In this document: piece by piece, positions 23,944 through 59,609 of the stretch | Layout: each line of letters opens with the position of its first letter | Numbering within the stretch: position 1 is the first letter of the stretch | NCBI GenBank assembly: GCA_017936615.1 | Contig: JAGBFF010000044.1 | Span: 8,609 to 72,608, forward strand | Direction of reading: 5' to 3' | Length of the DNA stretch: 64,000 nucleotides | Source: Clostridia bacterium | Lineage (GTDB): Bacteria; Bacillota; Clostridia; Oscillospirales; Acutalibacteraceae | Made by a program: the position numbers and the translations under genes | The notes under the pieces: model-generated | What the model saw: the letters and a program-made list of their open reading frames with translations, nothing else | What the model was told of the DNA's origin: nothing | Database searches by the model: none

Positions 23944-25017
23944 ATGCTAACTCAAAATGTACAACTGGAAAATAAGACAATTTTGGTGACCGGTGCGGCA
24001 GGATTTATCGGCGCAAATCTCGTGACCGAGCTAATGCACACCGTGCCGACGGTGACTATCGTGGGTTTGGATAATATGAATGCCTACTACGACGTGGCGA
24101 TCAAGGACTACCGTCTTGCTGAGATCGAGCGTCTGGCAGAGGAGAAGACAGGCATTCGCTGGGAATTCGTCAAGGGCGATCTCGCGGAGGCGGCACTCAT
24201 CGACCGCCTGTTTGCCGAGTACAAATTTGATGTTGTCGTCAATCTGGCGGCACAGGCGGGTGTGCGGTACTCCATCACCAATCCCGACGCGTACATCCAA
24301 AGCAACTTGATCGGTTTCTACAATATTCTGGAGGCGTGCCGCCGTTATCCGGTGGAGCACCTCGTGTATGCCTCCAGCTCCAGCGTGTATGGCACCAACA
24401 AAAAAGTGCCCTACGCCACCGAGGACAAGGTGGACAACCCCGTGTCGCTGTATGCGGCCACCAAGAAATCCAACGAGCTGATGGCGCACGCTTACTCAAA
24501 GTTGTATAACATTCCGTCGACGGGTCTGCGGTTTTTCACGGTCTATGGCCCCGCGGGTCGTCCGGATATTGCGTACTTCGGCTTTACCAATAAGCTGCTG
24601 AAGGGCGAGACCATTGAGATCTTCAATTATGGCAACTGCAAGCGAGACTTCACCTACGTGGACGATATCGTGGAGGGCGTCAAGCGTGTGATGCAATGCG
24701 CCCCCGAGAAGCAAACGGGCGAGGATGGTCTGCCGATCCCGCCGTACCGTGTGTACAACATCGGCAACAGCAGCCCCGAGAATTTGTTGGATTTCGTGGA
24801 TATTTTGCAGCAGGAGCTGATTCGTGCCGGCGTATTGCCGTCGGATTACGATTTTGAGGCGCATAAAAAGCTTGTGCCGATGCAGGCAGGGGACGTTCCC
24901 GTGACCTACGCCGACACGAGCGCACTGGAAGCCGACTTCGGCTTCAAACCGTCCACCGATCTGCGGACGGGTTTGCGCCGCTTTGCCGAGTGGTACAAAG
25001 CGTTTTATCAGGTATAA
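23944..25017 (+). CDS. NAD-dependent epimerase, UDP-glucuronate 4-epimerase-like (CapI/LpsL family)
   Basis: ILVTGAAGFIGANL, YASSSSVYG and YAATKKSNE (YxxxK) SDR motifs, 357 aa. Confidence 0.7.
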   Translation: MLTQNVQLENKTILVTGAAGFIGANLVTELMHTVPTVTIVGLDNMNAYYDVAIKDYRLAEIERLAEEKTGIRWEFVKGDLAEAALIDRLFAEYKFDVVVNLAAQAGVRYSITNPDAYIQSNLIGFYNILEACRRYPVEHLVYASSSSVYGTNKKVPYATEDKVDNPVSLYAATKKSNELMAHAYSKLYNIPSTGLRFFTVYGPAGRPDIAYFGFTNKLLKGETIEIFNYGNCKRDFTYVDDIVEGVKRVMQCAPEKQTGEDGLPIPPYRVYNIGNSSPENLLDFVDILQQELIRAGVLPSDYDFEAHKKLVPMQAGDVPVTYADTSALEADFGFKPSTDLRTGLRRFAEWYKAFYQV

Positions 25018-42111: not shown

Positions 42112-42810
42112 ATGAGCGTATTGCAGAATAAAGCAACTGCAGAAGCACCTGAAGCTGCAGGCGTAATTTTGCCCTTTGAGAAAAAAGACGAATATTTTAT
42201 TGAGCATTTGTACGAGATTCCGTCCAAACCGGTGTATCGGTTTTTTAAGCGGGTTTTCGACATTCTGCTTTCCGTATTGGCCCTGATCCTTTTAGCGATC
42301 CCGATGCTGGTCATCGCGATCATTATCAAATGCACGTCGCGCGGCACGGTGTTTTACCATCAGGACCGTCTTGGTCTGAACGGTCGCCCCATCCGTGTCA
42401 CCAAGTTCCGTACCATGCACATGGATGCCGAGGTGGACGGTGCGCAGTGGTCGAAGGGCGACGAGGATGGTCGTATCTATCCGTTTGGCCTGTGCCTGCG
42501 CAAGATGCGGTTGGACGAGCTTCCGCAGTTCTGGGGCATCCTGAAGGGTGACTTGAGTCTGGTTGGCCCTCGTCCGGAGCGCGAGTGCTTCTACAAGGAA
42601 TTCGAGACCTACATTCACGGCTTCAAAGAGCGTCTGAAGGTTAAGCCGGGTCTGACGGGCTTGGCGCAGATCAACGGCGGCTACGATCTTCCTCCGGAGG
42701 AGAAGATCCTGTGGGACGTCAAGTATATCAAGAACCGTTCGTTGTGGAACGATTTCAAGATCATGTGCAAGACCGTTGCAGTCGTGTTTACGCACGACGG
42801 CGCGAAATAA
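42112..42810 (+). CDS. phosphoglycosyl transferase (bacterial sugar transferase, EpsL/TuaA/WbaP-C type)
   Basis: One TM helix, then VTKFRTM and DELPQFWGILKGDLSLVGPRP core motifs. Confidence 0.85.
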   Translation: MSVLQNKATAEAPEAAGVILPFEKKDEYFIEHLYEIPSKPVYRFFKRVFDILLSVLALILLAIPMLVIAIIIKCTSRGTVFYHQDRLGLNGRPIRVTKFRTMHMDAEVDGAQWSKGDEDGRIYPFGLCLRKMRLDELPQFWGILKGDLSLVGPRPERECFYKEFETYIHGFKERLKVKPGLTGLAQINGGYDLPPEEKILWDVKYIKNRSLWNDFKIMCKTVAVVFTHDGAK

Positions 42811-47600: not shown

Positions 47601-48481
47601 TGACCGTCAACAGCACCCAAACGGCGGTAGCGGATCACGGCCCGTGGCTGGAGGGTACGAGCGTCACCGTGACAGCGGGAGGCGACTACGCTATCTTTGC
47701 TTACAACGGCCTGACGGTGAGCGACAAATTGACGGTGTCCACTCCTGAAGGAGGCGTTATCGGCGAGCTGTCCGAGGACGACTATACTTACGGCACGGTG
47801 GTGTATGAGGGTGCTCCCGCGAAGGATGTGGCGCTCAAGCCTCTCGGCTATACCGTGAAGTTCTACGGCTTGAAAAACACGATGCAGGCGCTGGTTCCGG
47901 CGGGTCATTCTTTGAACGAAACGTATTGCGATAGATTTGGTGTCGAGGATTTCTCTGAAATATTCAACACGGAAAAGGACGGCTACCTCTTCGGCGGCTG
48001 GTACACCGATGAATCTTGCACAGCGGGCAACGAGTTCGCGTTTGACGCATCCGTGGCAGCAGATACGGCCGTGTACGCCAAATGGATTCCGCTTCACGCG
48101 GTCAGCGTGGAAACGGTCGATGGCGGCACGGTGACGGTGAGCCCCGAAATCGTTGCTCCCGGTGAGACGGTGGTGATCACGCTTGCCCCCGACGAAGGCA
48201 AGGAAGTGGACACCGTTACGGTCACCGACAAGGACGGCAACACCGTTACGGTGACTGCCGAGGAGGACGGTACCTATTTCTTCATCCAACCGGAGACCGA
48301 GGTTACCGTCCGCGTGACGTACAAGAATATGCAAGCGGCAGCTCCCGATACCGAGGAGGATACACAGACTCCGCCGACCGGGGATAGCGGTGTGTCGTTG
48401 CTGTGGCCGGTACTGCTGGCCGCCAGCGGGATCTGCCTGGCAGTGTGTGGCAAAAGAAACCGAGCATCCGCGAAAAACTAA
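44675..48481 (+). CDS. large secreted, cell-wall-anchored repeat protein (beta-helix-like modules, Flg_new/Listeria-Bacteroides repeats, Ig-like domains)
   Basis: GTG 44675 follows aaggagga. Signal peptide KTRSAFVKPLFSVLLCLALMLAYVPSFVLAQE. Flg_new-type repeats (VTFDANGG..., LYYDANGG...GYVFNGWNT...VTLYAQW, ...GYLFGGWYTDE...AVYAKW). C-terminal TPPTGD, a hydrophobic helix, then KRNRASAKN. Confidence 0.8.
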   Translation: MKTRSAFVKPLFSVLLCLALMLAYVPSFVLAQEPAVLGDFTVTSADGVTALTDGTDYTYTDGTLTITTDTPVVIGMKDGVATTDDVIVTDSTVGETTVTFHNLHIDTTEDEAITVQGSAATVLIFSGTNTLSSADTGIDVSDETPLRITSSDAGSLTIADVKYGIACIAYSATEALEIGGNIKLSIQNCSSHAVYYRYGAVAFSGTPTVDIDTYTYAIYGIGVDIAGGTFTLKNDDGYIICSGSGNPLTLSGTADLHITEGERGLYTSGGKITITDSAKLKVYGGSADSKTPAIVDCAISSSELLINKNAIVDVHTKEDAISGGTTKIADDARVNITIACTSSSSQHAIRFDSPLEIGDRAHIDIGISGSKIYGLYDITDGVVNISGSAVVNIRGAYRAVYADALNLSGNAAVSIADDLNYAIYGVVSLQDSATLTATSTSKKVLYDAFTVTPATGEAYMVKVGASEESATTEYYKEKTTVSEKSAWRYFHASATDKVPVNVTFDANGGAAIDPITVTYGEKYGKLPSSAVTGLSGGDSNWYVVDENGAVTETKITKLSTVGLTRDHQLFVVRKVLAPTLKITLTVPGAISNDYQYYVPGNSKRILTVTVNNQNTDVLEYTYQWYKDGAAITDATGAVLELDGDVSDNGTYTVKVTATLKDGSGIVVTSNTASAEKEQKVKILHAANTLYYDANGGEDGPSSNYTGGVTLAVVQEAPTRTGYVFNGWNTAADGSGDGYTAGSTYTFAEDGGNGGCSVTLYAQWIKAYDLYVGGVRVTEANKNDVFGDGTVIYDAETNTLTLNGYEYAGEGYLYRRGDENDVYYAAIYSTGSLNVRLVGSNTIKNTADGVAENQYGDGVITEGDVTFAGDGTLNLYGSFGVGCNGQMTVAEGVLVLFTTDNGIVAGDVVVKDGAVVIVETERDGITALLGGVTVEGAEVVVTASRDGIYADGDVTITDSSVQIKAEGDGVYSYDGKVTVNSTQTAVADHGPWLEGTSVTVTAGGDYAIFAYNGLTVSDKLTVSTPEGGVIGELSEDDYTYGTVVYEGAPAKDVALKPLGYTVKFYGLKNTMQALVPAGHSLNETYCDRFGVEDFSEIFNTEKDGYLFGGWYTDESCTAGNEFAFDASVAADTAVYAKWIPLHAVSVETVDGGTVTVSPEIVAPGETVVITLAPDEGKEVDTVTVTDKDGNTVTVTAEEDGTYFFIQPETEVTVRVTYKNMQAAAPDTEEDTQTPPTGDSGVSLLWPVLLAASGICLAVCGKRNRASAKN

Positions 48482-48655: not shown

Positions 48656-48684
48656 TTGATTTCACGGGCGAAATCGTGTATAAT
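48656..48684 (+). promoter_or_regulatory. promoter of polysaccharide cassette 2
   Basis: TTGATT, 17-nt spacer, TATAAT. Confidence 0.55.
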
Positions 48685-48818
48685 TCAAATATCTGTAATC
48701 ATCTTGCCGGTGTTCCTCGTCTTTGGACTTGAAAAACACACACGCGCATCGCGTGGATCGGCAGCGGAACGGCAGTTTTGCCGCGCTTCGCACCGTATGG
48801 GATAAGGAAGTTTGTCGT

Positions 48819-49871
48819 ATGAAAAAGGCTTGCGTGATAGGACACTTCGGGTTTGGGCACACCTTGCTGAACGGTCAGACGATCAAAACCAAGATCGTTA
48901 CCGCCGAGTTGGAAAAGAACCTGCCAGGGCAGGTCATGACGATCGATACGCACGGTGGTATCAAATCGCTGATAAAAGCGCCTTTTCACTGCTTTAAGGC
49001 GCTGCGGGGGAGTCAAAATATCGTGATATTGCCTGCCCACAAGGGGTTACGGGTATATGCGCCGTTGCTCGTGCTTTTGCGGTATTTCTTTCGTGGCAGA
49101 CGCCTGCACTACGCCGTGGTCGGCGGCTGGTTGCCTGCGATGCTGAAATCCAAGAAGGGCCTTGCCAAGGCCTTAAAGCGGTTTGATCACATCTATGCGG
49201 AAACCGGCACGGCACAGCGCGCGCTGGAGGCGCTTGGCTTTAATAACATTGCGATCATGCCCAACTGCAAGGAGCTGGAACTTCTGCCGGAAGACGCGCT
49301 CGTGTACGACGTGAGCGAACCGTATCCGCTGTGCACCTTTTCCCGCGTGATGAGGGAAAAGGGCATCGAGGACGCGGTTGCGGCTGTGAAAGCGGTCAAC
49401 GAGGCCGTGGGAAGAACCGTGTATCGTCTGGACATCTACGGTCAGGTGGACGGGGGACAGGTGACGTGGTTCGACGAGCTGCAGAAGACCCTTCCCGACT
49501 ATGTGACCTACGGCGGCACGGTGCCTTTTGATCAGAGCGTCGAAGTGCTAAAGAACTATTTCGCGCTGCTGTTTCCCACACGGTTTTACACCGAGGGTAT
49601 CCCCGGCACCGTGATCGACGCCTATGCGGCAGGTGTACCGGTGATCGGTACGCGGTGGGAGAGCTTTGCAGATATGATCGATGACGGCGTGACCGGCATC
49701 GGGTATACGTTTGGGAGCGTTGAAGAATTGACAGAAATTTTGATGGCGTGTGCCGAGGAACCGGATAGGGTTCTCCGCATGAAGGCGGCGTGCCTGACCA
49801 AGGCGGAGGAGTATCTGCCGCGCCGGGCTGTACAGGTGCTGCTGGAGCGGATGGGCGCGGCGGAAGCGTAA
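48819..49871 (+). CDS. glycosyltransferase, GT4 family
   Basis: RBS aaggaag before ATG 48819. LFPTRFYTEGIPGTVIDAYAAGVPVIGTRW motif. Confidence 0.8.
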   Translation: MKKACVIGHFGFGHTLLNGQTIKTKIVTAELEKNLPGQVMTIDTHGGIKSLIKAPFHCFKALRGSQNIVILPAHKGLRVYAPLLVLLRYFFRGRRLHYAVVGGWLPAMLKSKKGLAKALKRFDHIYAETGTAQRALEALGFNNIAIMPNCKELELLPEDALVYDVSEPYPLCTFSRVMREKGIEDAVAAVKAVNEAVGRTVYRLDIYGQVDGGQVTWFDELQKTLPDYVTYGGTVPFDQSVEVLKNYFALLFPTRFYTEGIPGTVIDAYAAGVPVIGTRWESFADMIDDGVTGIGYTFGSVEELTEILMACAEEPDRVLRMKAACLTKAEEYLPRRAVQVLLERMGAAEA

Positions 49872-49897
49872 CATGATGCGGGTGTGGGGTGTGAATC

Positions 49898-50995
49898 GTG
49901 AAACGGCTGTTATGTGTGATAAGCGGTATGAATGCCGGTGGTGCCGAAGGCTTCTTGATGAAGGTGTACCGCGGTCTGGATAAAAGTAAGTACCAGATGG
50001 ATTTTTGCATTAATGTCAGGGAAAAATGCTTTTATGAGGATGAGATCCTGGCCATGGGGGGCAAGATCTATCGCATCCCTTCCAAATCAGAGAACTTAAA
50101 AGAATTCAAGCGGCAGCTAGCCGAAACGGTTTGTAACAACGGATACGATCACGTGATCCGTGTGACCTCCAGCGCGATGGGATTTATGGATCTAAAGATC
50201 GCTAAAAAAGCGGGAGCTCGTGTTTGCTGTGCCCGTTCGAGCAATTCCAGTGACGGCGATGGGTTGAAGGCCAAGGTGGCTCACCGCCTCGGCAGATTAC
50301 TGTACCGTCGGTATGTGGATGTGAGGATCGCGCCGAGTGATCTCGCTGCGAAGTATACGTTCGGAAACGCGGTGTATGCGCGGGGCGGCGTGAACATCGT
50401 TCATAACGGTGTCGACCTTAGCGTGTTCCGTTACGATGCTCAGGCGCGGGATGTGATCCGCGCGGAGCTGTCCGTTCCTCAGGATGCTAAACTGATCGGT
50501 CACGTCGGACGGTTTGATCCGCAAAAGAATCATATGTTTTTGCTGGAGATATTCCGCGAGATTCATGCGCTTGACCCAAACACCCGACTGGTGTTGGTCG
50601 GCAAAGGTCCTTTGGAGGAAGCCGTACGGGCAAAGGCCGAGGAACTGGGTATAGCGGACCGCCTGATTTTCACAGGCGTTCGGTCGGACGTACCCAAACT
50701 GTTATCCGCTATGGATGTTTTTGTATTCCCGTCGTTCTACGAGGGAATGCCGAACACGGTGATCGAAGCGCAGGCCACGGGTCTGCCTTGTGTGATTGCC
50801 GACACCATCACACGTGAGGCGAACATCACGGAACTGGTGAACTATTTGCCGTTGACCTCGCCGTCCGAGTGGGCGGAGGCGGCTTTGAAAGCCATCGGTT
50901 CGGAGCGAGCCGATACAACAGCGGCGTTTGTTCGGAACAAATATGACATTGACAGTGTTGTTCGTGAGTTTTCGCGGCTGGTATTTGAGGCGTAA
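49898..50995 (+). CDS. glycosyltransferase, GT4 family (EpsF-like)
   Basis: VFPSFYEGMPNTVIEAQATGLPCVIAD motif. GTG start. Confidence 0.8.
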   Translation: MKRLLCVISGMNAGGAEGFLMKVYRGLDKSKYQMDFCINVREKCFYEDEILAMGGKIYRIPSKSENLKEFKRQLAETVCNNGYDHVIRVTSSAMGFMDLKIAKKAGARVCCARSSNSSDGDGLKAKVAHRLGRLLYRRYVDVRIAPSDLAAKYTFGNAVYARGGVNIVHNGVDLSVFRYDAQARDVIRAELSVPQDAKLIGHVGRFDPQKNHMFLLEIFREIHALDPNTRLVLVGKGPLEEAVRAKAEELGIADRLIFTGVRSDVPKLLSAMDVFVFPSFYEGMPNTVIEAQATGLPCVIADTITREANITELVNYLPLTSPSEWAEAALKAIGSERADTTAAFVRNKYDIDSVVREFSRLVFEA

Positions 50996-51063
50996 AGAGA
51001 GCCGTTCCACCCGATAGTCTCACCATTCTGTTGTATTCCTGCCGGAAAGGGGATGTCATCGCT

Positions 51064-52212
51064 ATGTACATTGTATATCTGGTACTTGCCGGTGTGCAGG
51101 CTTGGTACGCCACCAAAAAAGGGTGGATGGCTGATACCAAGGGCAAGGGCCGTTATTTGGCGCTGTGCTGTGCTGAGTTGATCCTGCTGGTGGCGCTGCG
51201 CGGAAGAGGCGTCGGCTCAGACACCGCGACGTATCTGGATGCGCTGGCGTATTATTCCTCGTTACCTAAAAGTGAGGTCTTGTTTGCGGGCTTGATCAAG
51301 CCGTTTGATTTTGAGGTCGCATATTTCGGATTGACCAAGATCTGCGCCTTAATAAATATGCCTCCGCAGGTTTTTTTGGGACTCATTGCCGCGGTGATCT
51401 ACGTTCCGGTGTTTATGTGCATTCATCGGTATTCCAAGCTGCCGTACATCAGCATTCTGGCTTATTTTGCTATCGGGCAATTTGCGTACAGTCTGGGCTT
51501 TTTCCGCCAGCTGATGGCGTTTTCCATCGTGCTGTGTGGGTTGACGTATCTTGAAAAACGAAAGCTGTGGAAATTTCTGCCGTTTGTTCTCATCGCAGCG
51601 ACCTTCCACCGATCGGCGTTGTTTATGGTCGTGCTGTACGTGGCGTATGCCATACCGTTTCAGAAATACGTCAAGTGGCTTATTCCGGCAGAGCTGGCTT
51701 GTTTATTGCTGGGCAGACCAATTTCCCTGGCGATCGTCGCAGTGCTGCCGCGGTATGCTGCTTACATAGGCGGTCGGTACGATGTACAGGGCGGCACGTA
51801 TCTCATGCTGCTGCTGCTGACCGTGCTGCTGCTCGTGCTGATGTATCTCCATCGACGTGGCTTTACCGATAGTCGCCTGCTGATCACGGCATTGACACTG
51901 GCGGTATTCGTGCAGGCGGTGGGGTATTCGATGGCGGTGCTGGGCAGAGCGGTGCTGTACTTTTCGTTTTTTGCGATCTTTGCGTTTTCGGAGATCGTGT
52001 TCGTTATGATGACGAGAACGGATCTGTATGCCACGGTGCGGAATGATCTTGTTTCCGCAGGTGGTTGGTGCGTAAAATTTGCAAAAAAGCACAACCTAAC
52101 GTTGCAGAAAGTGGTGCTGGTTCTGGCTGTCGTGGGGCTGTTCGGTTTATTCCTGTTCAGCTTACTGGGCAACAAATACATTTTCCCGTATACGTTTTGG
52201 TTTATGAACTAA
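51064..52212 (+). CDS. EpsG-family polymerase-like membrane protein (Wzy type)
   Basis: Polytopic protein with the RGRGVGSDTATY motif typical of the EpsG family. RBS ggaaagggga. Confidence 0.7.
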   Translation: MYIVYLVLAGVQAWYATKKGWMADTKGKGRYLALCCAELILLVALRGRGVGSDTATYLDALAYYSSLPKSEVLFAGLIKPFDFEVAYFGLTKICALINMPPQVFLGLIAAVIYVPVFMCIHRYSKLPYISILAYFAIGQFAYSLGFFRQLMAFSIVLCGLTYLEKRKLWKFLPFVLIAATFHRSALFMVVLYVAYAIPFQKYVKWLIPAELACLLLGRPISLAIVAVLPRYAAYIGGRYDVQGGTYLMLLLLTVLLLVLMYLHRRGFTDSRLLITALTLAVFVQAVGYSMAVLGRAVLYFSFFAIFAFSEIVFVMMTRTDLYATVRNDLVSAGGWCVKFAKKHNLTLQKVVLVLAVVGLFGLFLFSLLGNKYIFPYTFWFMN

Positions 52213-52269
52213 TCGCTTCGGGCCGAGTGGCGGTCGTTATTCACACAGGAAAGGTCAAGGTGAAACGTG

Positions 52270-53187
52270 ATGGTTTCTTTTAAAAAAGCAATGAAATACC
52301 TTTTCAATCCCGATTATCGTTTTTTAATCAACGCAAACCAGGGCAAGTACGACGACATGGATAACGAGACCTTCCTGAAACGGAAGTTCAAGGCGTGTAT
52401 CGGACACGAGCTGGATCTGGAGGATCCAAAGACGTTCAATGAAAAACTGCAGTGGCTCAAGCTGTACGGGTGCAAACCGGAGTACGAAGTGTTAGTCGAT
52501 AAATATCGTGTGCGGGATTACATCCGCGACAAGCTGGGGGAGGAGTATTTGATCCCCTTGATCGGTGCGTGGGATTCGCCTGAGGAGATCGACTTTGATG
52601 CGCTGCCCGACAAATTTGTGCTGAAATGCAACCACAATTCAGGTGTCGGTATGTACATCTGTCGGGATAAATCCAAGATGGATGTGCAGCGTGTCAAGAA
52701 AGAACTGTATCGCGGTCTGGCACAGGATTATTATCTGACCGGCAGAGAAACGCCCTACAAGAACGTGCCACGCAAGATCATTTGTGAGCAATTTATGTCG
52801 GACGAGCCCGGTGCTTCCGACTTTACCGACTACAAGTTTTTCTGCTTTGACGGCAAGGTCGATTGCGTGATGGTCTGCCTTGAGCGTTCGAGCGGCGACA
52901 CGAAGTTCTATTTCTTTGATGAAAACTGGGAGCTGAAGCGGCTCAATATCCGCGGTAAACAGGCTCCCGCGGATTTCACGCTTCCCAAGCCCGCGTGTAT
53001 GGACGAGATGTTCAAGATCGCCGCGGAGCTGTCGGTGGGGATGCCGTTCGTGCGCGTGGATCTTTACCAGAGCAACGGACAGATCTATTTCGGCGAGCTG
53101 ACCTTTTTCCCGGACAGCGGCTTTGATGCCAATCTGCTTGCGGAGACCGATGAGTATTTCGGGAGCCTGATAACGTTGGAAAAATAA
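52270..53187 (+). CDS. TupA-like ATP-grasp protein
   Basis: NEKLQWLKLY, DKYRVRDYI, FVLKCNHNSG, YFFDENWE and GELTFFPDSG pattern of the ATPgrasp_TupA family. Confidence 0.75.
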   Translation: MVSFKKAMKYLFNPDYRFLINANQGKYDDMDNETFLKRKFKACIGHELDLEDPKTFNEKLQWLKLYGCKPEYEVLVDKYRVRDYIRDKLGEEYLIPLIGAWDSPEEIDFDALPDKFVLKCNHNSGVGMYICRDKSKMDVQRVKKELYRGLAQDYYLTGRETPYKNVPRKIICEQFMSDEPGASDFTDYKFFCFDGKVDCVMVCLERSSGDTKFYFFDENWELKRLNIRGKQAPADFTLPKPACMDEMFKIAAELSVGMPFVRVDLYQSNGQIYFGELTFFPDSGFDANLLAETDEYFGSLITLEK

Positions 53188-53200
53188 ACGGAGGCGCAGT

Positions 53201-54157
53201 ATGAAAACAGTAGGATTCCCTGTCAGTCACAAGGAAAACGAGAACCGACGAGTGATCGTCCCGGAGGATATTGCCAAGATCACTGCACCCGATCACTTGT
53301 ACATTGAAACGGGATTTGGTGAGGTTCTCGGCTTTTCGGACGAGGATTACGCGCGTATGGGTTGTCACATTTGCTCGCGCGAAGAGGTCTTGGCACAGGA
53401 TATCATCTGTGATCCCAAGGTCGGCGACGGCGACTATCTTGAGTCGCTCGGCGAGGGGCAGACCATTTTCGGCTGGGTTCACGCCACTCAAAACCGTGAT
53501 ATCACCGATAAGATACTCAACGCCAAGCTGACCGCCTACGCGTGGGAGAATATGTTCGATCAGAACCGGCACGTGTTTTGGTTCAATAACGAGCTGGCGG
53601 GTGCGTCGGCCGTTATCCATGCGTTTCAGTGCTACGGTCAGCTGCCGTACGGCCTGCGTGTGGCGGTACTCGGCAACGGTAATACCGCGCGCGGTGCCGT
53701 TCGGGTGTTGAATATGCTCGGCGCAGACGTGATGCAATACGGCCGTCGTCAGGAAGCGCTTTTCAAAGAGGAACTGGGCAATTACGACGTGATCGTCAAC
53801 TGTATCCTTTGGGATGTCAGTCGCAGCGATCATATCATCTATGCCGAGGATCTCAAGCGTATGAAGCGCGGTGCGCTCATCATCGACGTCAGCTGTGACA
53901 GGAACGGCGGTATCGAGACCTGCATCCCCACGTCGATCGAAGCTCCCACATATCTGGTGGACGGTGTGATGCATTATGCAGTTGATCACACGCCCTCGTT
54001 GTTTTATAAGACGTTCTCGTACGACAACTCCAAGATCATAGGGGCATATATCAACGAATTGATGAGCGGCAATATTGGCCCTGTGCTGAACGATGCGCTG
54101 ATCATCGAAAACGGTATTGTCATTGATCAGGAAATCAATAAATTTCAAAACCGTTGA
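53201..54157 (+). CDS. N5-(carboxyethyl)ornithine synthase-family dehydrogenase (AlaDH/PNT fold)
   Basis: GFPVSHKENENRRV, EGQTIFGWVHA, VLGNGNTARGAV (Rossmann) and LIIDVSCDRNGGIE motifs. Co-linear by eye with Lactococcus CEOS. Confidence 0.65.
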   Translation: MKTVGFPVSHKENENRRVIVPEDIAKITAPDHLYIETGFGEVLGFSDEDYARMGCHICSREEVLAQDIICDPKVGDGDYLESLGEGQTIFGWVHATQNRDITDKILNAKLTAYAWENMFDQNRHVFWFNNELAGASAVIHAFQCYGQLPYGLRVAVLGNGNTARGAVRVLNMLGADVMQYGRRQEALFKEELGNYDVIVNCILWDVSRSDHIIYAEDLKRMKRGALIIDVSCDRNGGIETCIPTSIEAPTYLVDGVMHYAVDHTPSLFYKTFSYDNSKIIGAYINELMSGNIGPVLNDALIIENGIVIDQEINKFQNR

Positions 54158-54192
54158 TCGGTACGGTATTCATTGCCGGAAAGGAAACCGTC

Positions 54193-55668
54193 GTGCAACA
54201 AGAGTTAAGTAAAAAAATAGGCAAAGCCGCCAAGTGGTCCAGCACTACCGAGATCATGGCAAAGCTGATCTCACCGCTGGTCAATATGGTTCTGGCGCGG
54301 CTGCTTTGTCCGGAAGAGCTGGGCGTGGTGGCGACCATCACGATGATCATCAGCTTTGCCGAGGTGTTTACAGACGCCGGATTTCAAAAATACCTTATCC
54401 AACACGAATTCGATTCGGGGGAGGCGCTGGATCGGAGCACCGATGTCGCTTTTTGGACGAACCTGTCGTTTTCGGCGTTGGTTTGTGTTATCATATTTGT
54501 GTTCCGGCACGACATCGCGGCACTTGTCGGTAATCCCGACCTCGGTAACGCCATCAGTATCGCTTCGATCAGCATCCTCCTGGTTGCTTTTTCCAGTATC
54601 CAAATGGCGCGTTACAAGCGGGACTTTGATTTCAAGACCCTGTTTTTCGTGCGGATCGGCACCTCACTGATCCCCGTCGTAGTCACCATTCCGTTGGCGG
54701 TCTGGCTCAGAAACTTCTGGGCACTGTTGATTGGAACGCTGGTAGCTAACCTGTTTAACGCCGTGGTCCTGACAGCGAAATCGAAGTGGAAGCCGCGGCT
54801 TTACTACAATTTCCGTTTGTTTAAGGAAATGTTCTCCTTCAGTGCGTGGACCCTGCTGGAGAGTATTGCGATATGGCTGACGTCGTATATTGATATTTTT
54901 ATCGTCGGTCGGTACCTGAGTGAGCATTACCTCGGGTTGTATAAGACGGCGATGACGACGGTGAATTCCTATCTGGCCATCGTCACCGCCTCGGTGATTC
55001 CTGTTTTGTTTTCTGCATTATCCCGAGCGCAAAACGACGAAAAGGAATTTCGCTCGACATACTATACCTTCCAAAGGCTGACAGCGGTGCTGGTTATACC
55101 GATGGGTATCGGTATGTTCTTGTACAGCGATCTTGTGACGAGCATCCTGCTCGGGTCGCAGTGGATGGAGGCCAGCGCGTTTATCGGCATTTGGAGCCTT
55201 ACCGGTGTGGTAACGGTCGTTTTCTCTTACTTTTCCAGTGAGGTGTATCGCAGCAAGGGCGAGCCCAAGATCTCGTTGATCACGCAGGTGATCCACTTGG
55301 GTTTCCTGATTCCCACGTTGCTGCTCACCGTGAGTCACGGCTTTGAGACGCTGTATATTGCCCGCTCTCTTGTCAGAGTTCAGGGCATATTCACAGGACT
55401 CATCATTATGCACGTGCGTTACGGGTTCAAGATACACCACGTGCTTAAAAATATTTTCCCGATGACGGTTGCCGCCGTCATTATGGGCGTCGCCGGCTTT
55501 GGCCTGCAATTTGTGGCGGATGGTCTTTTGTGGGATCTTGTAGCCATCGTGCTCTGCGTTATCGTGTATTTTACGGCACTGTTTGTCCTGTTCCCAAAAA
55601 CGAGGCGCGAGATTTTGGACAGCGCATATGCCCAAAAGCTGCTCGGTAAATTCAAAAAAACACCGTGA
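54193..55668 (+). CDS. wzx: Wzx-type flippase (MOP superfamily)
   Basis: About 14 TM helices with a polysaccharide-biosynthesis-protein N-terminus (KWSSTTEIMAKLISPLVNMVLARLL). GTG 54193 follows ggaaaggaa; the track ORF begins at TTG 54154. Confidence 0.8.
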   Translation: MQQELSKKIGKAAKWSSTTEIMAKLISPLVNMVLARLLCPEELGVVATITMIISFAEVFTDAGFQKYLIQHEFDSGEALDRSTDVAFWTNLSFSALVCVIIFVFRHDIAALVGNPDLGNAISIASISILLVAFSSIQMARYKRDFDFKTLFFVRIGTSLIPVVVTIPLAVWLRNFWALLIGTLVANLFNAVVLTAKSKWKPRLYYNFRLFKEMFSFSAWTLLESIAIWLTSYIDIFIVGRYLSEHYLGLYKTAMTTVNSYLAIVTASVIPVLFSALSRAQNDEKEFRSTYYTFQRLTAVLVIPMGIGMFLYSDLVTSILLGSQWMEASAFIGIWSLTGVVTVVFSYFSSEVYRSKGEPKISLITQVIHLGFLIPTLLLTVSHGFETLYIARSLVRVQGIFTGLIIMHVRYGFKIHHVLKNIFPMTVAAVIMGVAGFGLQFVADGLLWDLVAIVLCVIVYFTALFVLFPKTRREILDSAYAQKLLGKFKKTP

Positions 55669-55734
55669 TCCGTGTGAGAAAGGAATGCAGGGGTACTTTC
55701 CCGGCGTTTCGACAGGTGAGAGTCTGCCGTATCG

Positions 55735-55790
55735 ATCTCCTTGCTTTACATACGCCCCGTTGGGTTGTGTAAAGCAAGGAGATTTTTCTT
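55735..55790 (+). terminator. intrinsic terminator after cassette 2
   Basis: atctccttgctttaca (55735-55750) pairs with tgtaaagcaaggagat (55768-55783), followed by TTTTTCTT. Confidence 0.7.
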
Positions 55791-55836
55791 GTATGACGAT
55801 ATATTGCGCGCAGAAAGAAATACCGCGAGGTGAATT

Positions 55837-56043
55837 TCACCTCGCTTTTTTGTAGTTGCTCGGTGAAATGCCAAAGTGATTTTTGAAGGCCCGACTAAAA
55901 ACATAAATTGATGAAAATCCCAATTCATTAGACACATCGGATACGGATTGAGATGCAAGTAGTATTTTGGCTGACCGCATACGCTTATCGTTACGGTAAG
56001 CGATAAGGCTGATACCGTATCTATTTTTAAAACGATGTTCCAA
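55837..56043 (-). pseudogene. AraC-family regulator, C-terminal HTH fragment only
   Basis: Only the last ~68 codons remain (..RMRSAKILL....VSDVSNELGFSSIYVFSRAFKNHFGISPSNY). No sensor domain or first HTH. Confidence 0.75.
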
Positions 56044-56232
56044 ATGACACTTACCGATCCTGTTTATTTTGAAGAAGATTTAAAGGTTACGATTCAGGCG
56101 CTTGGCTGGAGAAGCGAGGGGAGATATCTGCCGCTTCAAGACGATATTTCTTCGGTGGCATATTGGTATTCCGATACGTTGGATGACACTTATCCGGCAT
56201 TTCCCTCGAAAAATGATTTGGAAATCATCTGA
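56035..56232 (+). pseudogene. DUF2961 (GH172-like) protein, C-terminal fragment only
   Basis: FEEDLKVTIQALGW...GRYLPLQDDISSVAYWY matches the DUF2961 C-terminus; about 300 N-terminal codons are missing. Abuts the AraC fragment head-to-head. Confidence 0.7.
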
Positions 56233-56372
56233 TGTAAAATATCAATTATAGAGTATAAATCTCCTTGTTTTACAGATGCGGTTAGAATACAAATAGTCTT
56301 TTTTCGCAGTATAAAACTCCCTTGTTGACAGATAATAACAGTGTTATCAAATCAACAAAGGAGTTTTTATAT

Positions 56373-56435
56373 ATGAAAGCAACCGGAATTGTTCGTAGAA
56401 TAGAGGAATGCGTTATAATAGGGCAAACAGCTTGA
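56373..56435 (+). pseudogene. AbrB/SpoVT-type regulator, N-terminal remnant
   Basis: RBS aaaggag precedes MKATGIVRRIEE (canonical AbrB start MK.TGIVR.[IV][DE]E). Similarity then ends, with a stop after 20 codons. Confidence 0.55.
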
Positions 56436-56595
56436 AACCCGCATAAACACTAGGGTTTTCGCTGGTTTGCCCCATTGAACGCATTGGTGTCAAAACAGGG
56501 TTTTTGGCGGTTTTAGAAAGGAGCAGAATAACATTCTAAATATGCGTCAGAAATACATACTCTGAGCAGCCAAAATTAAATATTCAACTGTCACA

Positions 56596-56634
56596 AAAAG
56601 CCGAATGGGTATTGAACTCATTTGGCTTTTATTT
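56596..56634 (+). terminator. terminator-like hairpin
   Basis: aaaagccgaatg / catttggctttt stem followed by a T-rich tail. Confidence 0.5.
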
Positions 56635-56672
56635 GTACAATCCTGAAAATGAGTAGAGTCAATAAGCACTTG

Positions 56673-56701
56673 TTGACATTTCAACTTCTTTGAGGTATAA
56701 T
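56673..56701 (+). promoter_or_regulatory. promoter of the HAD-MarR-DegV-XRE operon
   Basis: Exact TTGACA (56673-56678), 17-nt spacer, exact TATAAT (56696-56701). Confidence 0.65.
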
Positions 56702-56728
56702 ACAAAAGTTGAGTTTTCAACTTTTGTA
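56701..56728 (+). promoter_or_regulatory. operator-like perfect palindrome over the predicted transcription start (candidate MarR site)
   Basis: tacaaaagttga gttt tcaacttttgta: 12-bp perfect arms with a 4-nt spacer. An extra tcaactt half-site lies in the promoter spacer. Confidence 0.55.
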
Positions 56729-56755
56729 TTTAGATAACGAGAACGGAGAATAAAG

Positions 56756-57478
56756 ATGAGTATTAAAGTTGTTCTGTTTGATTTAGATGGAACTTTACTT
56801 CCTATGGATCAAGATGTGTTTGTAAAAGCATATTTCAAGGGAATTGCAGCAAAACTTGCTCCTTATGGTTATGAGCCCAAAGCACTGATTGACGCAATAT
56901 GGTCAGGAACCATCGAAATGATTAAAAATGATGGGCGCATAACAAACGAAGAAGCATTTTGGGATTACTTTGCTTCAATATATGGCGAAAAATCATTGGC
57001 GGCTATGCCGTTGTTTGAAAAATTTTACATCGAAAACTTTGATGCCGTAAAAGAGGTATGTGGCTATAATCCTGTGGCCGCAGAAACGGTAGAGAAGCTT
57101 AAAAAAGACGGCATTCGTGTTGCACTTGCTACCAATCCCATATTCCCTTCTATTGCAACTGAAAAACGAATGCGGTGGGCCGGACTGAAGCCGGAAGATT
57201 TTGAATTCTTTACGACCTATGAAAATTCAAAATACTGTAAGCCTAACCTCTGTTATTATAAAGAACTGTTAAAACAGTTGGGCGCCAAGCCTGAGGAATG
57301 TTTGATGGTCGGCAATGATGTTGGTGACGATATGGTAGCAGAAGATCTTGGAATGAAGGTCTTTTTGCTGACGGATTACCTGATCAATAAAACAGATAAA
57401 GAAATTTCGAATTACCATAATGGCGGTTTTAGTGAGCTGCTTCAATTTATCAATGATTTAATGGAGGGAAATGTATGA
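56756..57478 (+). CDS. HAD-superfamily hydrolase
   Basis: VLFDLDGTL (DxDGT) motif I, plus GNDVGDD motif IV. Confidence 0.85.
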   Translation: MSIKVVLFDLDGTLLPMDQDVFVKAYFKGIAAKLAPYGYEPKALIDAIWSGTIEMIKNDGRITNEEAFWDYFASIYGEKSLAAMPLFEKFYIENFDAVKEVCGYNPVAAETVEKLKKDGIRVALATNPIFPSIATEKRMRWAGLKPEDFEFFTTYENSKYCKPNLCYYKELLKQLGAKPEECLMVGNDVGDDMVAEDLGMKVFLLTDYLINKTDKEISNYHNGGFSELLQFINDLMEGNV

Positions 57479-57927
57479 TAGATAGATTTGAACGCTTTTC
57501 GCTTGCTATTTCCGAGATCTCGCGCTATTGGCATAAGCTGGCTGCAGAGGAGCTTACAAAGTACGGTCTGAAAGGCCCTCACGCAACCTATCTGACGGCT
57601 ATATACAAATATCCGGAAGGAATCACGGTTCCGCAGCTGTGTATGGTGTGTGGTAAAGATAAGTCCGATGCATCCCGTATGATATCCATATTAGAAGAAA
57701 AGGGACTTGTAAAAAAGCAAGTTGTTGGCGGAAGCCTTTACAGAGGAAAACTACAACTTACTGAAGAAGGTAAACTTGCGGCAGAGCATGTTTCCCGAAG
57801 GGCAAGCCGCGCGGTAGAGATGGCAGGTAAAGATCTTACCGATGAAGCGAGAGCAATGTTTTATAAATCTCTTGACTCTATAACCGCTAATTTACGTGAG
57901 CTTTGTCAGGAAGGAATACCGGACTAA
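57475..57927 (+). CDS. MarR family transcriptional regulator
   Basis: 150 aa winged-helix protein (GITVPQLCMVCGKDKSDASRMISILEEKGLV). ATGA overlap with the HAD gene. Confidence 0.85.
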   Translation: MIDRFERFSLAISEISRYWHKLAAEELTKYGLKGPHATYLTAIYKYPEGITVPQLCMVCGKDKSDASRMISILEEKGLVKKQVVGGSLYRGKLQLTEEGKLAAEHVSRRASRAVEMAGKDLTDEARAMFYKSLDSITANLRELCQEGIPD

Positions 57928-57961
57928 CCAATAACAAAATTATTAGTAAAGGATAGATATT

Positions 57962-58801: not shown

Positions 58802-58817
58802 GCTTGGAGGAAATCCA

Positions 58818-59420: not shown

Positions 59421-59431
59421 GTGCTTATACT

Positions 59432-59467
59432 AAACGCCCTGTTTTCAAGCAAAACAGGGCGTTTTTT
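59432..59467 (+). terminator. intrinsic terminator
   Basis: aaacgccctgtttt caagc aaaacagggcgttt plus a T-run. Confidence 0.85.
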
Positions 59468-59554
59468 GCGCGAATTCTCCGAAATGGAGAGTTGTAGAGA
59501 GTTGATTCTACGATACAAAATCTAATGAGTAGACAGTAATCCATGATACTTAGG

Positions 59555-59583
59555 TTTACCCAATTATATTGCATAAGTATAAT
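59555..59583 (+). promoter_or_regulatory. promoter of the GT8 operon
   Basis: TTTACC, 17-nt spacer, TATAAT. Confidence 0.45.
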
Positions 59584-59609
59584 AAAACTGCGAAGGTGGT
59601 GAAACCGTT

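What the first reader, a model, noticed from the sequence alone, without database searches (positions are those of the whole stretch)
52270..54157. TupA-like ATP-grasp ligase paired with a carboxyethyl-ornithine-synthase-family dehydrogenase inside a Wzx/Wzy cassette: predicted opine-amidated polysaccharide
Seen: two co-directional genes lie 13 nt apart between the EpsG-type polymerase (51064-52212) and the flippase (54193-55668). The first carries the TupA-like ATP-grasp pattern. The second is co-linear by eye with Lactococcus N5-(carboxyethyl)ornithine synthase (AlaDH/PNT fold, GNGN.A.G Rossmann). Established: CEOS enzymes reductively condense pyruvate with the side-chain amine of Orn/Lys to give opine-type N-(1-carboxyethyl) amino acids. 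The TupA family is named for teichuronopeptide, where amino acids are associated with a uronic-acid polymer. Inference: the cassette makes an opine amino acid and amide-links it to a uronic acid of the repeat unit. A uronate-epimerase-like gene sits at 23944-25017. Carboxyethyl-lysine and alanopine substituents are known chemically from a few Gram-negative O-antigens. I know of no genetically defined route in a Gram-positive gut anaerobe.
Basis: partly seen in the sequence, partly recalled or inferred. Interest (0 to 1): 0.7.

Follow-up and report, generated by a model that had tools for sequence, protein, structure and literature searches.

The report
Opine synthase plus ligase decorating polysaccharide
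Two adjacent genes in a cell-surface polysaccharide operon of an uncultured gut-type Clostridia bacterium most likely make an unusual pyruvate-derived ("opine") amino acid and attach it to an acidic sugar; the same gene pair recurs across many gut bacteria, so it is a testable genetic route to a rare sugar decoration known so far only from its chemistry.

Summary
Gene 52270-53187 encodes a full-length TupA-like ATP-grasp (Pfam 1.3e-60). Gene 53201-54157, 13 nt downstream, encodes a 318-aa AlaDH/PNT-fold protein. Both lie between an EpsG-type polymerase and a Wzx flippase.

The 318-aa protein is not an alanine dehydrogenase (90 bits against a cut-off of 392). It groups with lactococcal N5-(carboxyethyl)ornithine synthase (CEOS), excluding AlaDH and PntA, in 100 of 100 bootstraps. 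It is only 33% identical to lactococcal CEOS, so it belongs to a sister subfamily, not an ortholog.

The pair is conserved. In 30 of 39 well-flanked genomic loci with this protein, a TupA-like gene lies within 3.5 kb on the same strand, usually directly adjacent. Other loci carry different ATP-grasp ligases, and one relative is an ATP-grasp/CEOS-like fusion. UDP-sugar dehydrogenase and Gla-like epimerase genes are the commonest neighbours.

Providencia, Shewanella and an E. coli plasmid carry the same logic in capsule loci. In Providencia the product, carboxyethyl-lysine on GalA, is chemically documented.

Still unproven are the amino acid, the acceptor sugar (no dehydrogenase gene in this window) and the order of the two steps. 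I rate it a new variant of a known kind, of moderate-to-high interest.

The parts
52270..53187 (+). TupA-like ATP-grasp (305 aa), the predicted carboxylate-amine ligase (amidoligase).
   Evidence: Pfam PF14305, E 1.3e-60, full-length match. Residues K119, E173, D187-Y-K189, R262, D264 and E276 are invariant in 32 CEOS-paired homologs. By eye there is no long hydrophobic segment. The identical protein occurs in 5 metagenome contigs with the same neighbours.
53201..54157 (+). CEOS-like AlaDH/PNT-fold reductive aminase (318 aa), the predicted N-(1-carboxyethyl)-amino-acid (opine) synthase.
   Evidence: Pfam AlaDh_PNT_N and _C. It forms a clade with LAB CEOS in 100 of 100 bootstraps. The AlaDH pyruvate-binding and catalytic positions are conserved: R16/R17, K73, H94, D233. 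The strand after the Rossmann motif ends in basic 'QYGRRQE'. The AF2 model (pLDDT 82) matches AlaDH and PntA domain I at TM 0.70-0.77. Homologs of 70% identity or more are named CEOS by NCBI and JGI.
51064..52212 (+). EpsG-family Wzy-type repeat-unit polymerase.
   Evidence: Pfam EpsG 9.8e-39. Called as 382 aa in metagenome contigs.
54193..55668 (+). Wzx/MOP flippase.
   Evidence: Pfam Polysacc_synt_3 2.2e-87; NCBIfam MOP flippase 1.9e-48. GTG start at 54193 preceded by GGAAAGGA.
49898..50995 (+). GT4 glycosyltransferase.
   Evidence: Pfam Glyco_trans_1_4 and Glycos_transf_1. An ortholog occupies the same position in L036.
48723..49871 (+). GT4 glycosyltransferase, first gene of the putative operon.
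   Evidence: Pfam Glyco_trans_1_4. A promoter-like site lies just upstream.
48656..48684 (+). Sigma-70-like promoter match (TTGATT-17-TATAAT) upstream of the GT4 gene.
   Evidence: Consensus scan only.
55825..55845 (+). Terminator-like hairpin followed by a T-run, 157 nt after the Wzx stop codon.
   Evidence: Consensus scan only. It coincides with the fall in GC content.
42112..42810 (+). Bac_transf-type initiating sugar-phosphate transferase. It probably starts the same repeat unit; its start codon is uncertain.
   Evidence: Pfam Bac_transf 2.9e-62. It holds the same relative position in metagenome contig L067 and in L036.
23944..25017 (+). Gla-like extended-SDR epimerase, a candidate UDP-GlcA/UDP-GalA 4-epimerase. 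It is distant from the cassette, at the end of another polysaccharide locus.
   Evidence: Pfam Epimerase 5.6e-56. Best PDB match is 5u4q, 2.7e-110. It scores E 1e-150 to 1e-206 against epimerases next to Ugd genes in CEOS/TupA loci, and 7e-108 against the E. coli plasmid epimerase.

Best explanation
The two genes form a decoration module inside a Wzx/Wzy-dependent polysaccharide operon (about 48.7-55.7 kb) of an uncultured Clostridia bacterium.

Step 1 (inferred from family and conserved active-site residues). The 318-aa CEOS-clade enzyme uses NADPH to reductively condense pyruvate with a primary amine of an amino acid. The amine is most likely the side-chain amine of L-Lys or L-Orn. The product is an N-(1-carboxyethyl) amino acid, an opine.

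Step 2 (inferred from family and gene context). The cytoplasmic TupA-like ATP-grasp activates a sugar carboxylate as an acyl phosphate. The most likely carboxylate is C6 of a GalA or GlcA residue of the lipid-linked repeat unit. The enzyme then forms an amide with the free alpha-amine of the opine.

Step 3. Wzx flips the decorated unit and the EpsG-type Wzy polymerises it.

Shown here: the family assignments, the conserved catalytic residues, the conserved adjacency across phyla, and the co-occurrence with uronic-acid genes in related loci. Inferred: every substrate, the product, and the order of steps 1 and 2.
For: Family assignments:
- Both Pfam assignments are solid.
- The CEOS-like protein fails the AlaDH equivalog model (90.6 bits against a cut-off of 391.85). 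It groups with plasmid-borne Lactococcus and Vagococcus proteins that RefSeq annotates as CEOS, excluding AlaDH and PntA, in 100 of 100 bootstraps.
- The pyruvate-binding and catalytic positions R, K, H and D of AlaDH are conserved through the clade. The NAD-specifying acidic residue is replaced by basic residues.

Conserved pairing:
- Of 56 genomic loci found with the CEOS-like protein, 32 have a TupA-like gene on the same strand within 3.5 kb. That is 30 of the 39 loci with 1.5 kb or more on both sides. In 26 loci the genes are 200 nt or less apart.
- The loci include Fibrobacter, Muribaculaceae, Bacilli and many Clostridia.
- L003, L006 and L055 carry an ATPgrasp_ST ligase near the CEOS-like gene.
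- Providencia, Shewanella and E. coli plasmid loci carry a RimK/LysX-like ATP-grasp directly upstream.
- P0388 is a single-chain ATP-grasp + CEOS-like fusion.

Asymmetry of the pairing:
- Only 7 of 52 well-flanked TupA loci have a CEOS-like gene. The opine synthase is therefore an optional supplier to a generic ligase.

Link to uronic acids:
- UDP-sugar 6-dehydrogenase occurs in 20 loci and a Gla-like epimerase cluster in 22 loci, among the commonest neighbours. Of the 33 TupA + CEOS loci, 24 have one or both.

Precedents:
- The C-terminal TupA-like domain of C. jejuni Cj1438 forms amides on the GlcA C6 carboxylate (PMC11800379).
- N-epsilon-(1-carboxyethyl)-L-lysine amide-linked to GalA is known in Providencia rustigianii O14 and Proteus mirabilis O13 (PMC10609480; PMC5560731, file S4).

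Operon structure:
- The genes are tightly spaced with good ribosome-binding sites, and the unit is flanked by promoter-like and terminator-like sites.
Against: - Identity to lactococcal CEOS is only 32.6%. The window protein belongs to a distinct subfamily with a C-terminal extension of about 35 aa, so its substrates may differ.
- The tree has few outgroups and no saccharopine dehydrogenase.
- No UDP-sugar dehydrogenase, and no other uronic-acid-forming gene, lies in the 64-kb window. The epimerase is 28 kb away in another locus.
- About 9 of 39 well-flanked CEOS-like genes have no TupA-like gene nearby. Several of these sit among non-polysaccharide genes such as aconitase/IDH, an MFS transporter and an M32 peptidase. 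The enzyme can therefore act outside this module.
- TupA proteins up to 67% identical to paired ones lack a CEOS partner. A fixed opine-specific ligase is not implied.
- There is no biochemical or structural-chemistry datum for any member of this subfamily.
Confidence: 0.6

Rival explanations
1. The end product is the same but the order is reversed. The TupA-like ligase first attaches ordinary L-Lys or L-Orn, through its alpha-amine, to the uronic acid. The CEOS-like enzyme then reductively alkylates the free side-chain amine of the sugar-bound amino acid with pyruvate.
For: TupA-like proteins up to 67% identical to CEOS-paired ones occur without any CEOS-like gene, and some of those loci carry Ugd and Gla-like genes. 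That pattern fits a Lys-attaching ligase with an optional add-on enzyme. Proteus has both GalA-Lys (O3) and GalA-carboxyethyl-Lys (O13) antigens (PMC5560731, file S4).
Against: To my knowledge, the characterised Lactococcus CEOS acts on free Orn and Lys. The CEOS-like protein is much more conserved (48-81% identity) than its TupA partner (33-79%) across very different repeat-unit contexts, as expected for an enzyme with small, invariant substrates. Orphan CEOS-like genes exist outside polysaccharide loci.
Confidence: 0.2
2. The ATP-grasp activates a carboxyl group of the opine, not of a sugar, and N-acylates an amino sugar of the repeat unit. The known example is alanopine on 4-amino-4,6-dideoxyglucose in Providencia alcalifaciens O35.
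For: That chemistry is known (PMC10609480). A few related loci have DegT-type aminotransferase and 4,6-dehydratase genes next to the pair (clusters c18 and c11; for example L002 and L006). This window's cassette lacks any uronic-acid gene.
Against: Ugd and Gla-like genes are far commoner neighbours (20 and 22 loci) than aminotransferases (4 loci). The only characterised TupA-like enzyme activates the sugar carboxylate (PMC11800379). There is no aminotransferase in the 42-56 kb cassette.
Confidence: 0.1
3. The 318-aa protein is a divergent L-alanine dehydrogenase, or another amino-acid dehydrogenase, that only supplies a standard amino acid such as L-Ala for the ligase.
For: The best solved-structure matches by sequence and by fold are alanine dehydrogenases. 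The pyruvate-binding residues are conserved. L-Ala amides of uronic acids exist.
Against: It scores 90.6 bits on the AlaDH equivalog model, whose cut-off is 391.85. It is about 50 aa shorter and shares CEOS-type deletions. It forms a clade with CEOS in 100 of 100 bootstraps. L-Ala is an abundant metabolite that needs no dedicated synthase in a decoration cassette.
Confidence: 0.05
4. The pair makes a soluble small molecule, such as an opine-containing dipeptide or a metallophore-like compound. Its position in the polysaccharide operon is incidental.
For: Some CEOS-like genes are orphans in metabolic contexts. Lactococcal CEOS makes free intracellular opines.
Against: In this window, in five metagenome contigs and in most related loci, the pair sits between Wzy and Wzx or among glycosyltransferases on the same strand. 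No exporter or NRPS-like gene accompanies it.
Confidence: 0.05

Closest known systems
N5-(carboxyethyl)ornithine synthase (CEOS, ceo gene, EC 1.5.1.24) of Lactococcus lactis
   Same: Both have the AlaDH/PNT two-domain fold and a length of about 310-320 aa, with the same two deletions relative to AlaDH. Both keep the conserved R/K/H/D pyruvate-site residues and a GxGxxA Rossmann motif followed by basic residues. The two form one clade in 100 of 100 bootstraps.
   Different: Identity is only 32.6%. The window protein belongs to a separate subfamily with an extra C-terminal stretch of about 35 aa. The lactococcal gene stands alone on plasmids among stress and metal-resistance genes, with no ligase or polysaccharide genes nearby. 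The window gene is welded to an ATP-grasp ligase inside a Wzx/Wzy operon. The physiological role of the lactococcal enzyme is, to my knowledge, unknown.
C-terminal TupA-like ATP-grasp amidoligase domain of Campylobacter jejuni Cj1438 (Raushel laboratory)
   Same: It is described as having the same TupA-like ATP-grasp fold (PF14305 for the window protein). It is encoded in a surface-polysaccharide locus and forms an amide on the C6 carboxylate of a uronic acid (PMC11800379).
   Different: Cj1438C is fused to a GT2 polymerising glycosyltransferase in an ABC-transporter-type capsule system and attaches ethanolamine or serinol. The window protein is free-standing in a Wzx/Wzy system and is paired with a dedicated amine-making enzyme. 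I could not compare the sequences directly because Cj1438 was not available in any collection on hand.
N-epsilon-(1-carboxyethyl)-L-lysine amides of GalA in the O-antigens of Providencia rustigianii O14 and Proteus mirabilis O13
   Same: This is exactly the kind of product predicted here. Providencia rettgeri and Shewanella carry ATP-grasp + CEOS-like + Wzx + EpsG + Gla-like epimerase + Ugd loci.
   Different: Only the chemistry is published in the papers I could read (PMC10609480; PMC5560731, file S4). Neither assigns genes to the decoration. The Gram-negative loci use a 371-aa CEOS-like subfamily (38% identical to the window protein) and a RimK/LysX-like ATP-grasp that is unrelated to TupA by profile comparison. 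I did not examine the serotype strains themselves.
WemR and other TupA-like proteins of Proteus O-antigen clusters
   Same: They are TupA-like ATP-grasps in O- and K-antigen loci, predicted to add amino acids to surface polysaccharides (PMC13419641, citing Iyer et al. 2009).
   Different: They are predictions only. The text I could read mentions no partner enzyme that makes a non-standard amine.

Membership tests
TupA-like ATP-grasp (Pfam PF14305) | Full-length match to the family HMM above the gathering score | tested here: met
   205.4 bits against a cut-off of 25; profile positions 1-240 of 241.
TupA-like ATP-grasp (Pfam PF14305) | Conserved ATP-grasp nucleotide- and Mg-binding residues | tested here: met
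   K119, E173, D187/K189, R262, D264 and E276 are invariant in 32 paired homologs. Their assignment to ATP or Mg binding is by analogy, not by structure. The single-sequence AF2 model was unusable (pLDDT 43).
TupA-like ATP-grasp (Pfam PF14305) | ATP-dependent amide formation on a uronic-acid carboxylate, as shown for Cj1438C | not testable with these tools
   This needs an enzyme assay. Context support only: Ugd and Gla-like genes lie near 24 of 33 paired loci.
N5-(carboxyethyl)ornithine synthase (CEOS, EC 1.5.1.24) | AlaDH/PNT N- and C-terminal domains | tested here: met
   PF05222 5.2e-17 and PF01262 4.1e-20. The AF2 model matches AlaDH and PntA domain I at TM 0.70-0.77.
N5-(carboxyethyl)ornithine synthase (CEOS, EC 1.5.1.24) | Groups with Lactococcus-type CEOS rather than AlaDH or transhydrogenase | tested here: met
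   NJ tree of 61 sequences, 100 of 100 bootstraps for the clade that excludes AlaDH and PntA. Limits: distance method, few outgroups, no saccharopine dehydrogenase.
N5-(carboxyethyl)ornithine synthase (CEOS, EC 1.5.1.24) | Orthology or close similarity to the lactococcal enzyme | tested here: inconclusive
   32.6% identity over 291 columns and a separate, deep-branching subfamily. NCBIfam holds no CEOS-specific model. NCBI and JGI nevertheless name close homologs of the window protein CEOS.
N5-(carboxyethyl)ornithine synthase (CEOS, EC 1.5.1.24) | Conserved pyruvate-binding and catalytic residues of the AlaDH-type active site | tested here: met
   R16/R17, K73, H94 and D233 align with the AlaDH Arg/Lys/His/Asp positions and are conserved in all CEOS-clade sequences shown.
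N5-(carboxyethyl)ornithine synthase (CEOS, EC 1.5.1.24) | NADPH-dependent condensation of pyruvate with the side-chain amine of Orn or Lys | not testable with these tools
   Only a hint: basic 'QYGRRQE' stands where AlaDH has the NAD-specifying acidic residue.
L-alanine dehydrogenase (TIGR00518) | Score at or above the curated equivalog cut-off, and a length of about 370 aa | tested here: not met
   90.6 bits against 391.85, matched in two pieces. Length is 318 aa, with two internal deletions.
Wzx/Wzy-dependent polysaccharide gene cluster containing a uronic acid | Wzx flippase, Wzy polymerase, glycosyltransferases and an initiating transferase | tested here: met
   Polysacc_synt_3, EpsG, two GT4 genes and Bac_transf.
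Wzx/Wzy-dependent polysaccharide gene cluster containing a uronic acid | UDP-sugar 6-dehydrogenase (Ugd) in or near the cluster | tested here: not met
   There is no GG.C..KD-motif ORF and no tblastn hit to a Ugd from related loci anywhere in the 64-kb window. Only the Gla-like epimerase at 23944-25017 is present.

The most novel reading that the evidence does not exclude
A CEOS-like opine synthase paired with a carboxylate-amine ligase (TupA-like, ATPgrasp_ST, RimK-like, or fused) is a general and so far undescribed biosynthetic module for N-(1-carboxyethyl)-amino-acid decorations of bacterial surface polysaccharides.

If so, it would do three things:
- supply the missing genes for the carboxyethyl-lysine O- and K-antigens of Providencia, Proteus and Shewanella;
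- show that the same decoration is widespread in gut and rumen Clostridia, Fibrobacter and Muribaculaceae;
- give the CEOS family its main physiological role, with the orphan lactococcal enzyme as the exception.
Probability: 0.45. Interest if true: 0.7.

Novelty: new variant of a known kind. Interest (0 to 1): 0.55.

Why it matters
Amino-acid amides on uronic acids shape the charge and antigenicity of bacterial surface polysaccharides. The carboxyethyl-lysine ("AlaLys") type has been known chemically for decades, yet the literature I could search assigns no genes to it.

This finding, with the comparative data gathered here, names two candidate enzymes and a simple two-step route. It also points to cultured organisms in which the route can be tested. 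The same decoration is probably common in commensal gut and rumen anaerobes, whose capsule chemistry is almost unexplored.

It also offers a physiological role for the CEOS enzyme family, which has been an enzymological curiosity. If the route is confirmed, the gene pair becomes a sequence marker for predicting a zwitterionic or extra-acidic surface decoration from genomes. That is relevant to host immune recognition and phage receptor diversity.

Tried and rejected
- Solved TupA-like structure: a sequence search of PDB found none. A single-sequence AF2 model of the TupA-like protein was too poor to use (pLDDT 43). My TupA alignment held locus-derived sequences, which the structure tool does not accept.
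- Family-specific models: NCBIfam has no CEOS-specific and no UDP-GlcA-epimerase-specific model. I therefore could not test membership against a curated equivalog.
- The E. coli and Providencia upstream gene: I tested whether it is TupA-like. phmmer and hhalign found no relation, and Pfam found nothing. NCBIfam gives weak RimK/LysX matches, and RefSeq calls it an ATP-grasp. It is a different ATP-grasp family.
- Ugd in the window: searched by motif and by tblastn, with no hit. I also searched for the GHMP-kinase and nucleotidyltransferase genes seen in L036 and L032, with no hit.
- Co-evolution: the Mantel correlation between CEOS-like and TupA distances is weak (r 0.28, 21 of 2000 permutations). 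It is not strong evidence of co-evolution.
- Clustering of paired TupAs: the nearest neighbour of a paired TupA is also paired in 0.88 of cases, against 0.46 expected. The figure is confounded because the paired and unpaired sets came from two different scans.
- Literature: searches for CEOS or alanine dehydrogenase in O-antigen, capsule or EPS clusters found nothing relevant. One search was wasted on 'wemR'. Three key papers are not in the library: Iyer et al. 2009 on amidoligases, Riegert et al. 2022 on Cj1438C, and Wang et al. 2010 on the Proteus O-antigen locus. Prior mention of the pairing there cannot be excluded.
- Plain alanine dehydrogenase and transhydrogenase readings: considered and rejected.
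Full report
1. OBSERVATION

The first runs 52267/52270-53187 on the + strand. It gives 305 aa from the ATG at 52270, which is the start a gene caller used on five metagenome contigs that encode the identical protein. The second runs 53201-54157 on the + strand (318 aa). It starts 13 nt after the first stops and has a GGAGG ribosome-binding site 6 nt upstream.

Pfam gives a full-length ATPgrasp_TupA match for the first ORF: E 1.3e-60, 205 bits, profile positions 1-240 of 241. The second ORF matches AlaDh_PNT_N and AlaDh_PNT_C. The flanking genes are EpsG and Polysacc_synt_3/Wzx. The GNGNTARG Rossmann motif is present at residues 158-165.

2. LOCAL CONTEXT

The genes from 48723 to 55668 are co-directional and tightly spaced. 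In order they are GT4, GT4, EpsG, TupA-like, CEOS-like and Wzx. A promoter-like site lies at 48656-48684 and a terminator-like hairpin at 55825-55845; both are consensus matches only.

A Bac_transf initiating transferase lies at 42112-42810. It is separated from the operon by an alpha/beta-hydrolase gene on the other strand and by a 1348-aa Flg_new/Cthe_2159 surface protein. Metagenome contig L067 has the same order.

Immediately after the Wzx stop codon, GC content falls from about 52% to about 39%.

A second, separate Wzx/Wzy locus fills 0.8-25 kb. No UDP-sugar 6-dehydrogenase is encoded anywhere in the window.

The nearest named relatives of the window's Dus protein are 'Clostridia bacterium' MAGs at 82% and 72% identity. 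The most syntenic genome locus is a goat-cecum Clostridia MAG, L036, whose CEOS-like protein is 81% identical to the window's. 'Gram-positive-type gut anaerobe' is therefore reasonable but not proven.

3. WHAT THE 318-AA PROTEIN IS

- It is not an alanine dehydrogenase by the curated test: 90.6 bits against a cut-off of 391.85.
- The best solved structures by sequence and by predicted fold are AlaDH and transhydrogenase domain I. The AF2 model has pLDDT 82 and TM 0.70-0.77. No CEOS structure exists.
- More than 100 database homologs at 69% identity or more have the same length. Those that carry a name are called N(5)-(carboxyethyl)ornithine synthase by NCBI or JGI.
- I retrieved lactococcal-type CEOS genes from plasmids of L. 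lactis, L. garvieae and Vagococcus. I also retrieved AlaDH genes and E. coli PntA.
- The window protein is 32.6% identical to L. lactis CEOS and 23-27% identical to the AlaDHs.
- In a neighbour-joining tree, the window subfamily, a Gram-negative/actinobacterial subfamily and the LAB CEOS group form one clade. AlaDH and PntA are excluded in 100 of 100 bootstraps.
- The alignment shows the AlaDH Arg/Lys/His/Asp active-site positions conserved (R16/R17, K73, H94, D233). It also shows two deletions shared by the whole CEOS clade. Basic residues (QYGRRQE) stand where AlaDH has the acidic residue that selects NAD, which hints at NADPH use.

The protein therefore works like a CEOS-type pyruvate-dependent reductive aminase. 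It belongs to a sister subfamily of the lactococcal enzyme rather than being its ortholog.

At 50% clustering the family is small: only 87 clusters reach E 1e-30 or better.

4. IS THE PAIR CONSERVED?

A scan of one genome per species with the CEOS-like alignment returned 56 loci.

- A TupA-like gene lies on the same strand within 3.5 kb in 32 of them. That is 30 of the 39 loci with 1.5 kb or more of flank on both sides.
- In 26 loci it is directly adjacent: 23 upstream and 3 downstream.
- Carriers include Fibrobacter, Muribaculaceae, Bacilli and many Clostridia.
- Loci L003, L006 and L055 carry a different ligase near the CEOS-like gene, the 'sugar-transfer associated ATP-grasp'.

In an E. coli plasmid, in the Providencia rettgeri chromosome and in Shewanella oncorhynchi, a 371-aa CEOS-like protein is preceded by a 322- or 335-aa ATP-grasp of RimK/LysX type. 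That ATP-grasp is unrelated to TupA by hhalign. The two genes are followed by Wzx, glycosyltransferases, EpsG, an epimerase and Ugd. In Providencia the cluster lies between wzi and wza-wzb-wzc.

One distant relative, P0388, is a natural fusion of ATP-grasp_4 with a CEOS-like domain.

The reverse scan starts from TupA. Only 7 of 52 well-flanked TupA loci carry a CEOS-like gene. The ligase family is generic and the opine synthase is an optional supplier.

About nine CEOS-like genes have no TupA-like gene nearby, and several of these sit in non-polysaccharide contexts. These include the two Pseudolactococcus loci. The lactococcal plasmid gene is similarly isolated.

5. WHICH ACCEPTOR?

Among neighbours within 10 kb, UDP-sugar 6-dehydrogenase occurs in 20 loci. 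A Gla-like epimerase cluster occurs in 22 loci, often directly beside the dehydrogenase. Of the 33 TupA + CEOS loci, 24 have one or both.

The window's epimerase at 23944-25017 is a close homolog of these epimerases (E 1e-150 to 1e-206). It also matches the E. coli plasmid epimerase at 7e-108. Its best PDB match is 5u4q at 2.7e-110.

A ugd-gla pair marks UDP-GalA synthesis in Proteus O-antigen clusters (PMC5560731). The one biochemically characterised TupA-like enzyme, Cj1438C, forms amides on the C6 carboxylate of GlcA (PMC11800379).

A uronic acid is therefore the most likely acceptor. In this window that is an inference from relatives, because the cassette holds no uronic-acid gene.

6. MECHANISM AND RIVALS

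Best explanation (confidence about 0.6). The CEOS-like enzyme makes an N-(1-carboxyethyl) amino acid from pyruvate, NADPH and Lys or Orn. The TupA-like ATP-grasp ligates it by its alpha-amine to a uronic-acid carboxylate on the cytoplasmic, lipid-linked repeat unit. Wzx and Wzy then export and polymerise the unit.

Main rival (about 0.2). The end product is the same but ligation of Lys or Orn comes first. TupA proteins up to 67% identical to paired ones lack a CEOS partner, which favours this order. The much higher conservation of the CEOS-like protein than of TupA disfavours it.

Lesser rivals:
- The opine carboxyl is attached to an amino sugar (0.1).
- The protein is a plain AlaDH that supplies L-Ala (0.05).
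- The pair makes a soluble product unrelated to the polymer (0.05).

7. COMPARISON WITH WHAT IS KNOWN, AND NOVELTY

The predicted product class is chemically known. N-epsilon-(1-carboxyethyl)-L-lysine is amide-linked to GalA in Providencia rustigianii O14 and Proteus mirabilis O13 (PMC10609480; PMC5560731, file S4).

TupA-like ATP-grasps are already predicted, and in one case shown, to amidate surface polysaccharides (PMC11800379; PMC13419641).

What I could not find in the searchable literature is any link between CEOS-like enzymes and polysaccharide loci, or any gene assignment for the carboxyethyl decoration.

I classify the finding as a new variant of a known kind: amino-acid amidation of surface polysaccharides, here with a dedicated opine-making partner enzyme.

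8. VERDICT

The amino acid, the acceptor sugar and the order of steps are unproven.

Interest is 0.55. It is not a shock to a glycobiologist. It is a well-supported, widely distributed and easily testable route to a rare decoration, and it suggests a physiological role for the CEOS family.

Noticed in passing
window 55668-64000: GC content drops abruptly from about 52% to about 39% right after the Wzx stop codon. The region beyond encodes HAD, MarR, DegV (twice), an HTH protein, two GT8 glycosyltransferases and an acyltransferase. Metagenome contig L067, which carries the same cassette, ends inside Wzx. This could be a horizontally acquired segment, or the polysaccharide cassette itself could be the foreign part, or it could be an assembly join.
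   Followed up: partly
window 848-5050: The other Wzx/Wzy locus starts with a DegT aminotransferase, Bac_transf, a 357-aa protein with no significant family match and an L-amino-acid-ligase-type ATP-grasp (ATP-grasp_4 + LAL_C2, 3854-5050). This is a second, different candidate amino-acid-attaching ligase in the same window.
   Followed up: no
window 12566-14892: A polysaccharide pyruvyl transferase is followed by an FrhB/FdhB-like 4Fe-4S protein inside the first polysaccharide locus.
   Followed up: no
window 17435-25494: A 1001-aa fucose pyrophosphorylase/GHMP-kinase (FKP-like) gene is followed by FnlA/FnlB/FnlC-like genes (20469-23942), the Gla-like epimerase and an RbsD/FucU mutarotase. Sugar salvage and L-FucNAc-type synthesis sit together.
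   Followed up: no
window 44435-48481 and 43428-44486 (-): A 1348-aa Flg_new-repeat/Cthe_2159 surface protein and an alpha/beta-hydrolase with a weak glucuronyl-esterase-like match lie between the initiating transferase and the glycosyltransferase operon. Metagenome contig L067 has the same arrangement.
   Followed up: no
window 26322-29562 (-): Two large overlapping minus-strand ORFs (582 and 552 aa) have no Pfam match. They lie next to a DeoR regulator and an APH-family kinase.
   Followed up: no
P0388 and P0299: P0388 (784 aa) fuses an ATP-grasp_4 domain to a CEOS-like domain. P0299 (990 aa, from an AT-rich source) fuses a 650-aa N-terminal region with no Pfam hit to a CEOS-like domain. By eye that N-terminal region has a 'GIELRIFD' motif that resembles carboxylate-amine ligases; this is unverified.
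   Followed up: partly
L036 13127-16127 and L032 12492-15528: In the two loci closest to the window, Wzx is followed by three genes in place of Ugd: a galactokinase-family GHMP kinase (208 bits, just under the GalK cut-off), a sugar-1-phosphate nucleotidyltransferase and the Gla-like epimerase. This may be a salvage route to an NDP-uronic acid. None of the first two genes is present in the window.
   Followed up: partly
L063 (Vescimonas coprocola 4-kb plasmid pMM50_01) 1251-2369: A 372-aa protein annotated as alanine dehydrogenase is intermediate between AlaDH and the CEOS clade. It is 32% identical to the window protein, its C-terminal half resembles the window subfamily, and its position in the tree is unstable. 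It sits next to an Asp/Glu racemase on a tiny plasmid.
   Followed up: no
L047 7191-9848: In one locus the CEOS-like gene is preceded by two NTP_transf_5 'uncharacterised nucleotidyltransferase' genes instead of an ATP-grasp. This may be yet another activating partner.
   Followed up: no
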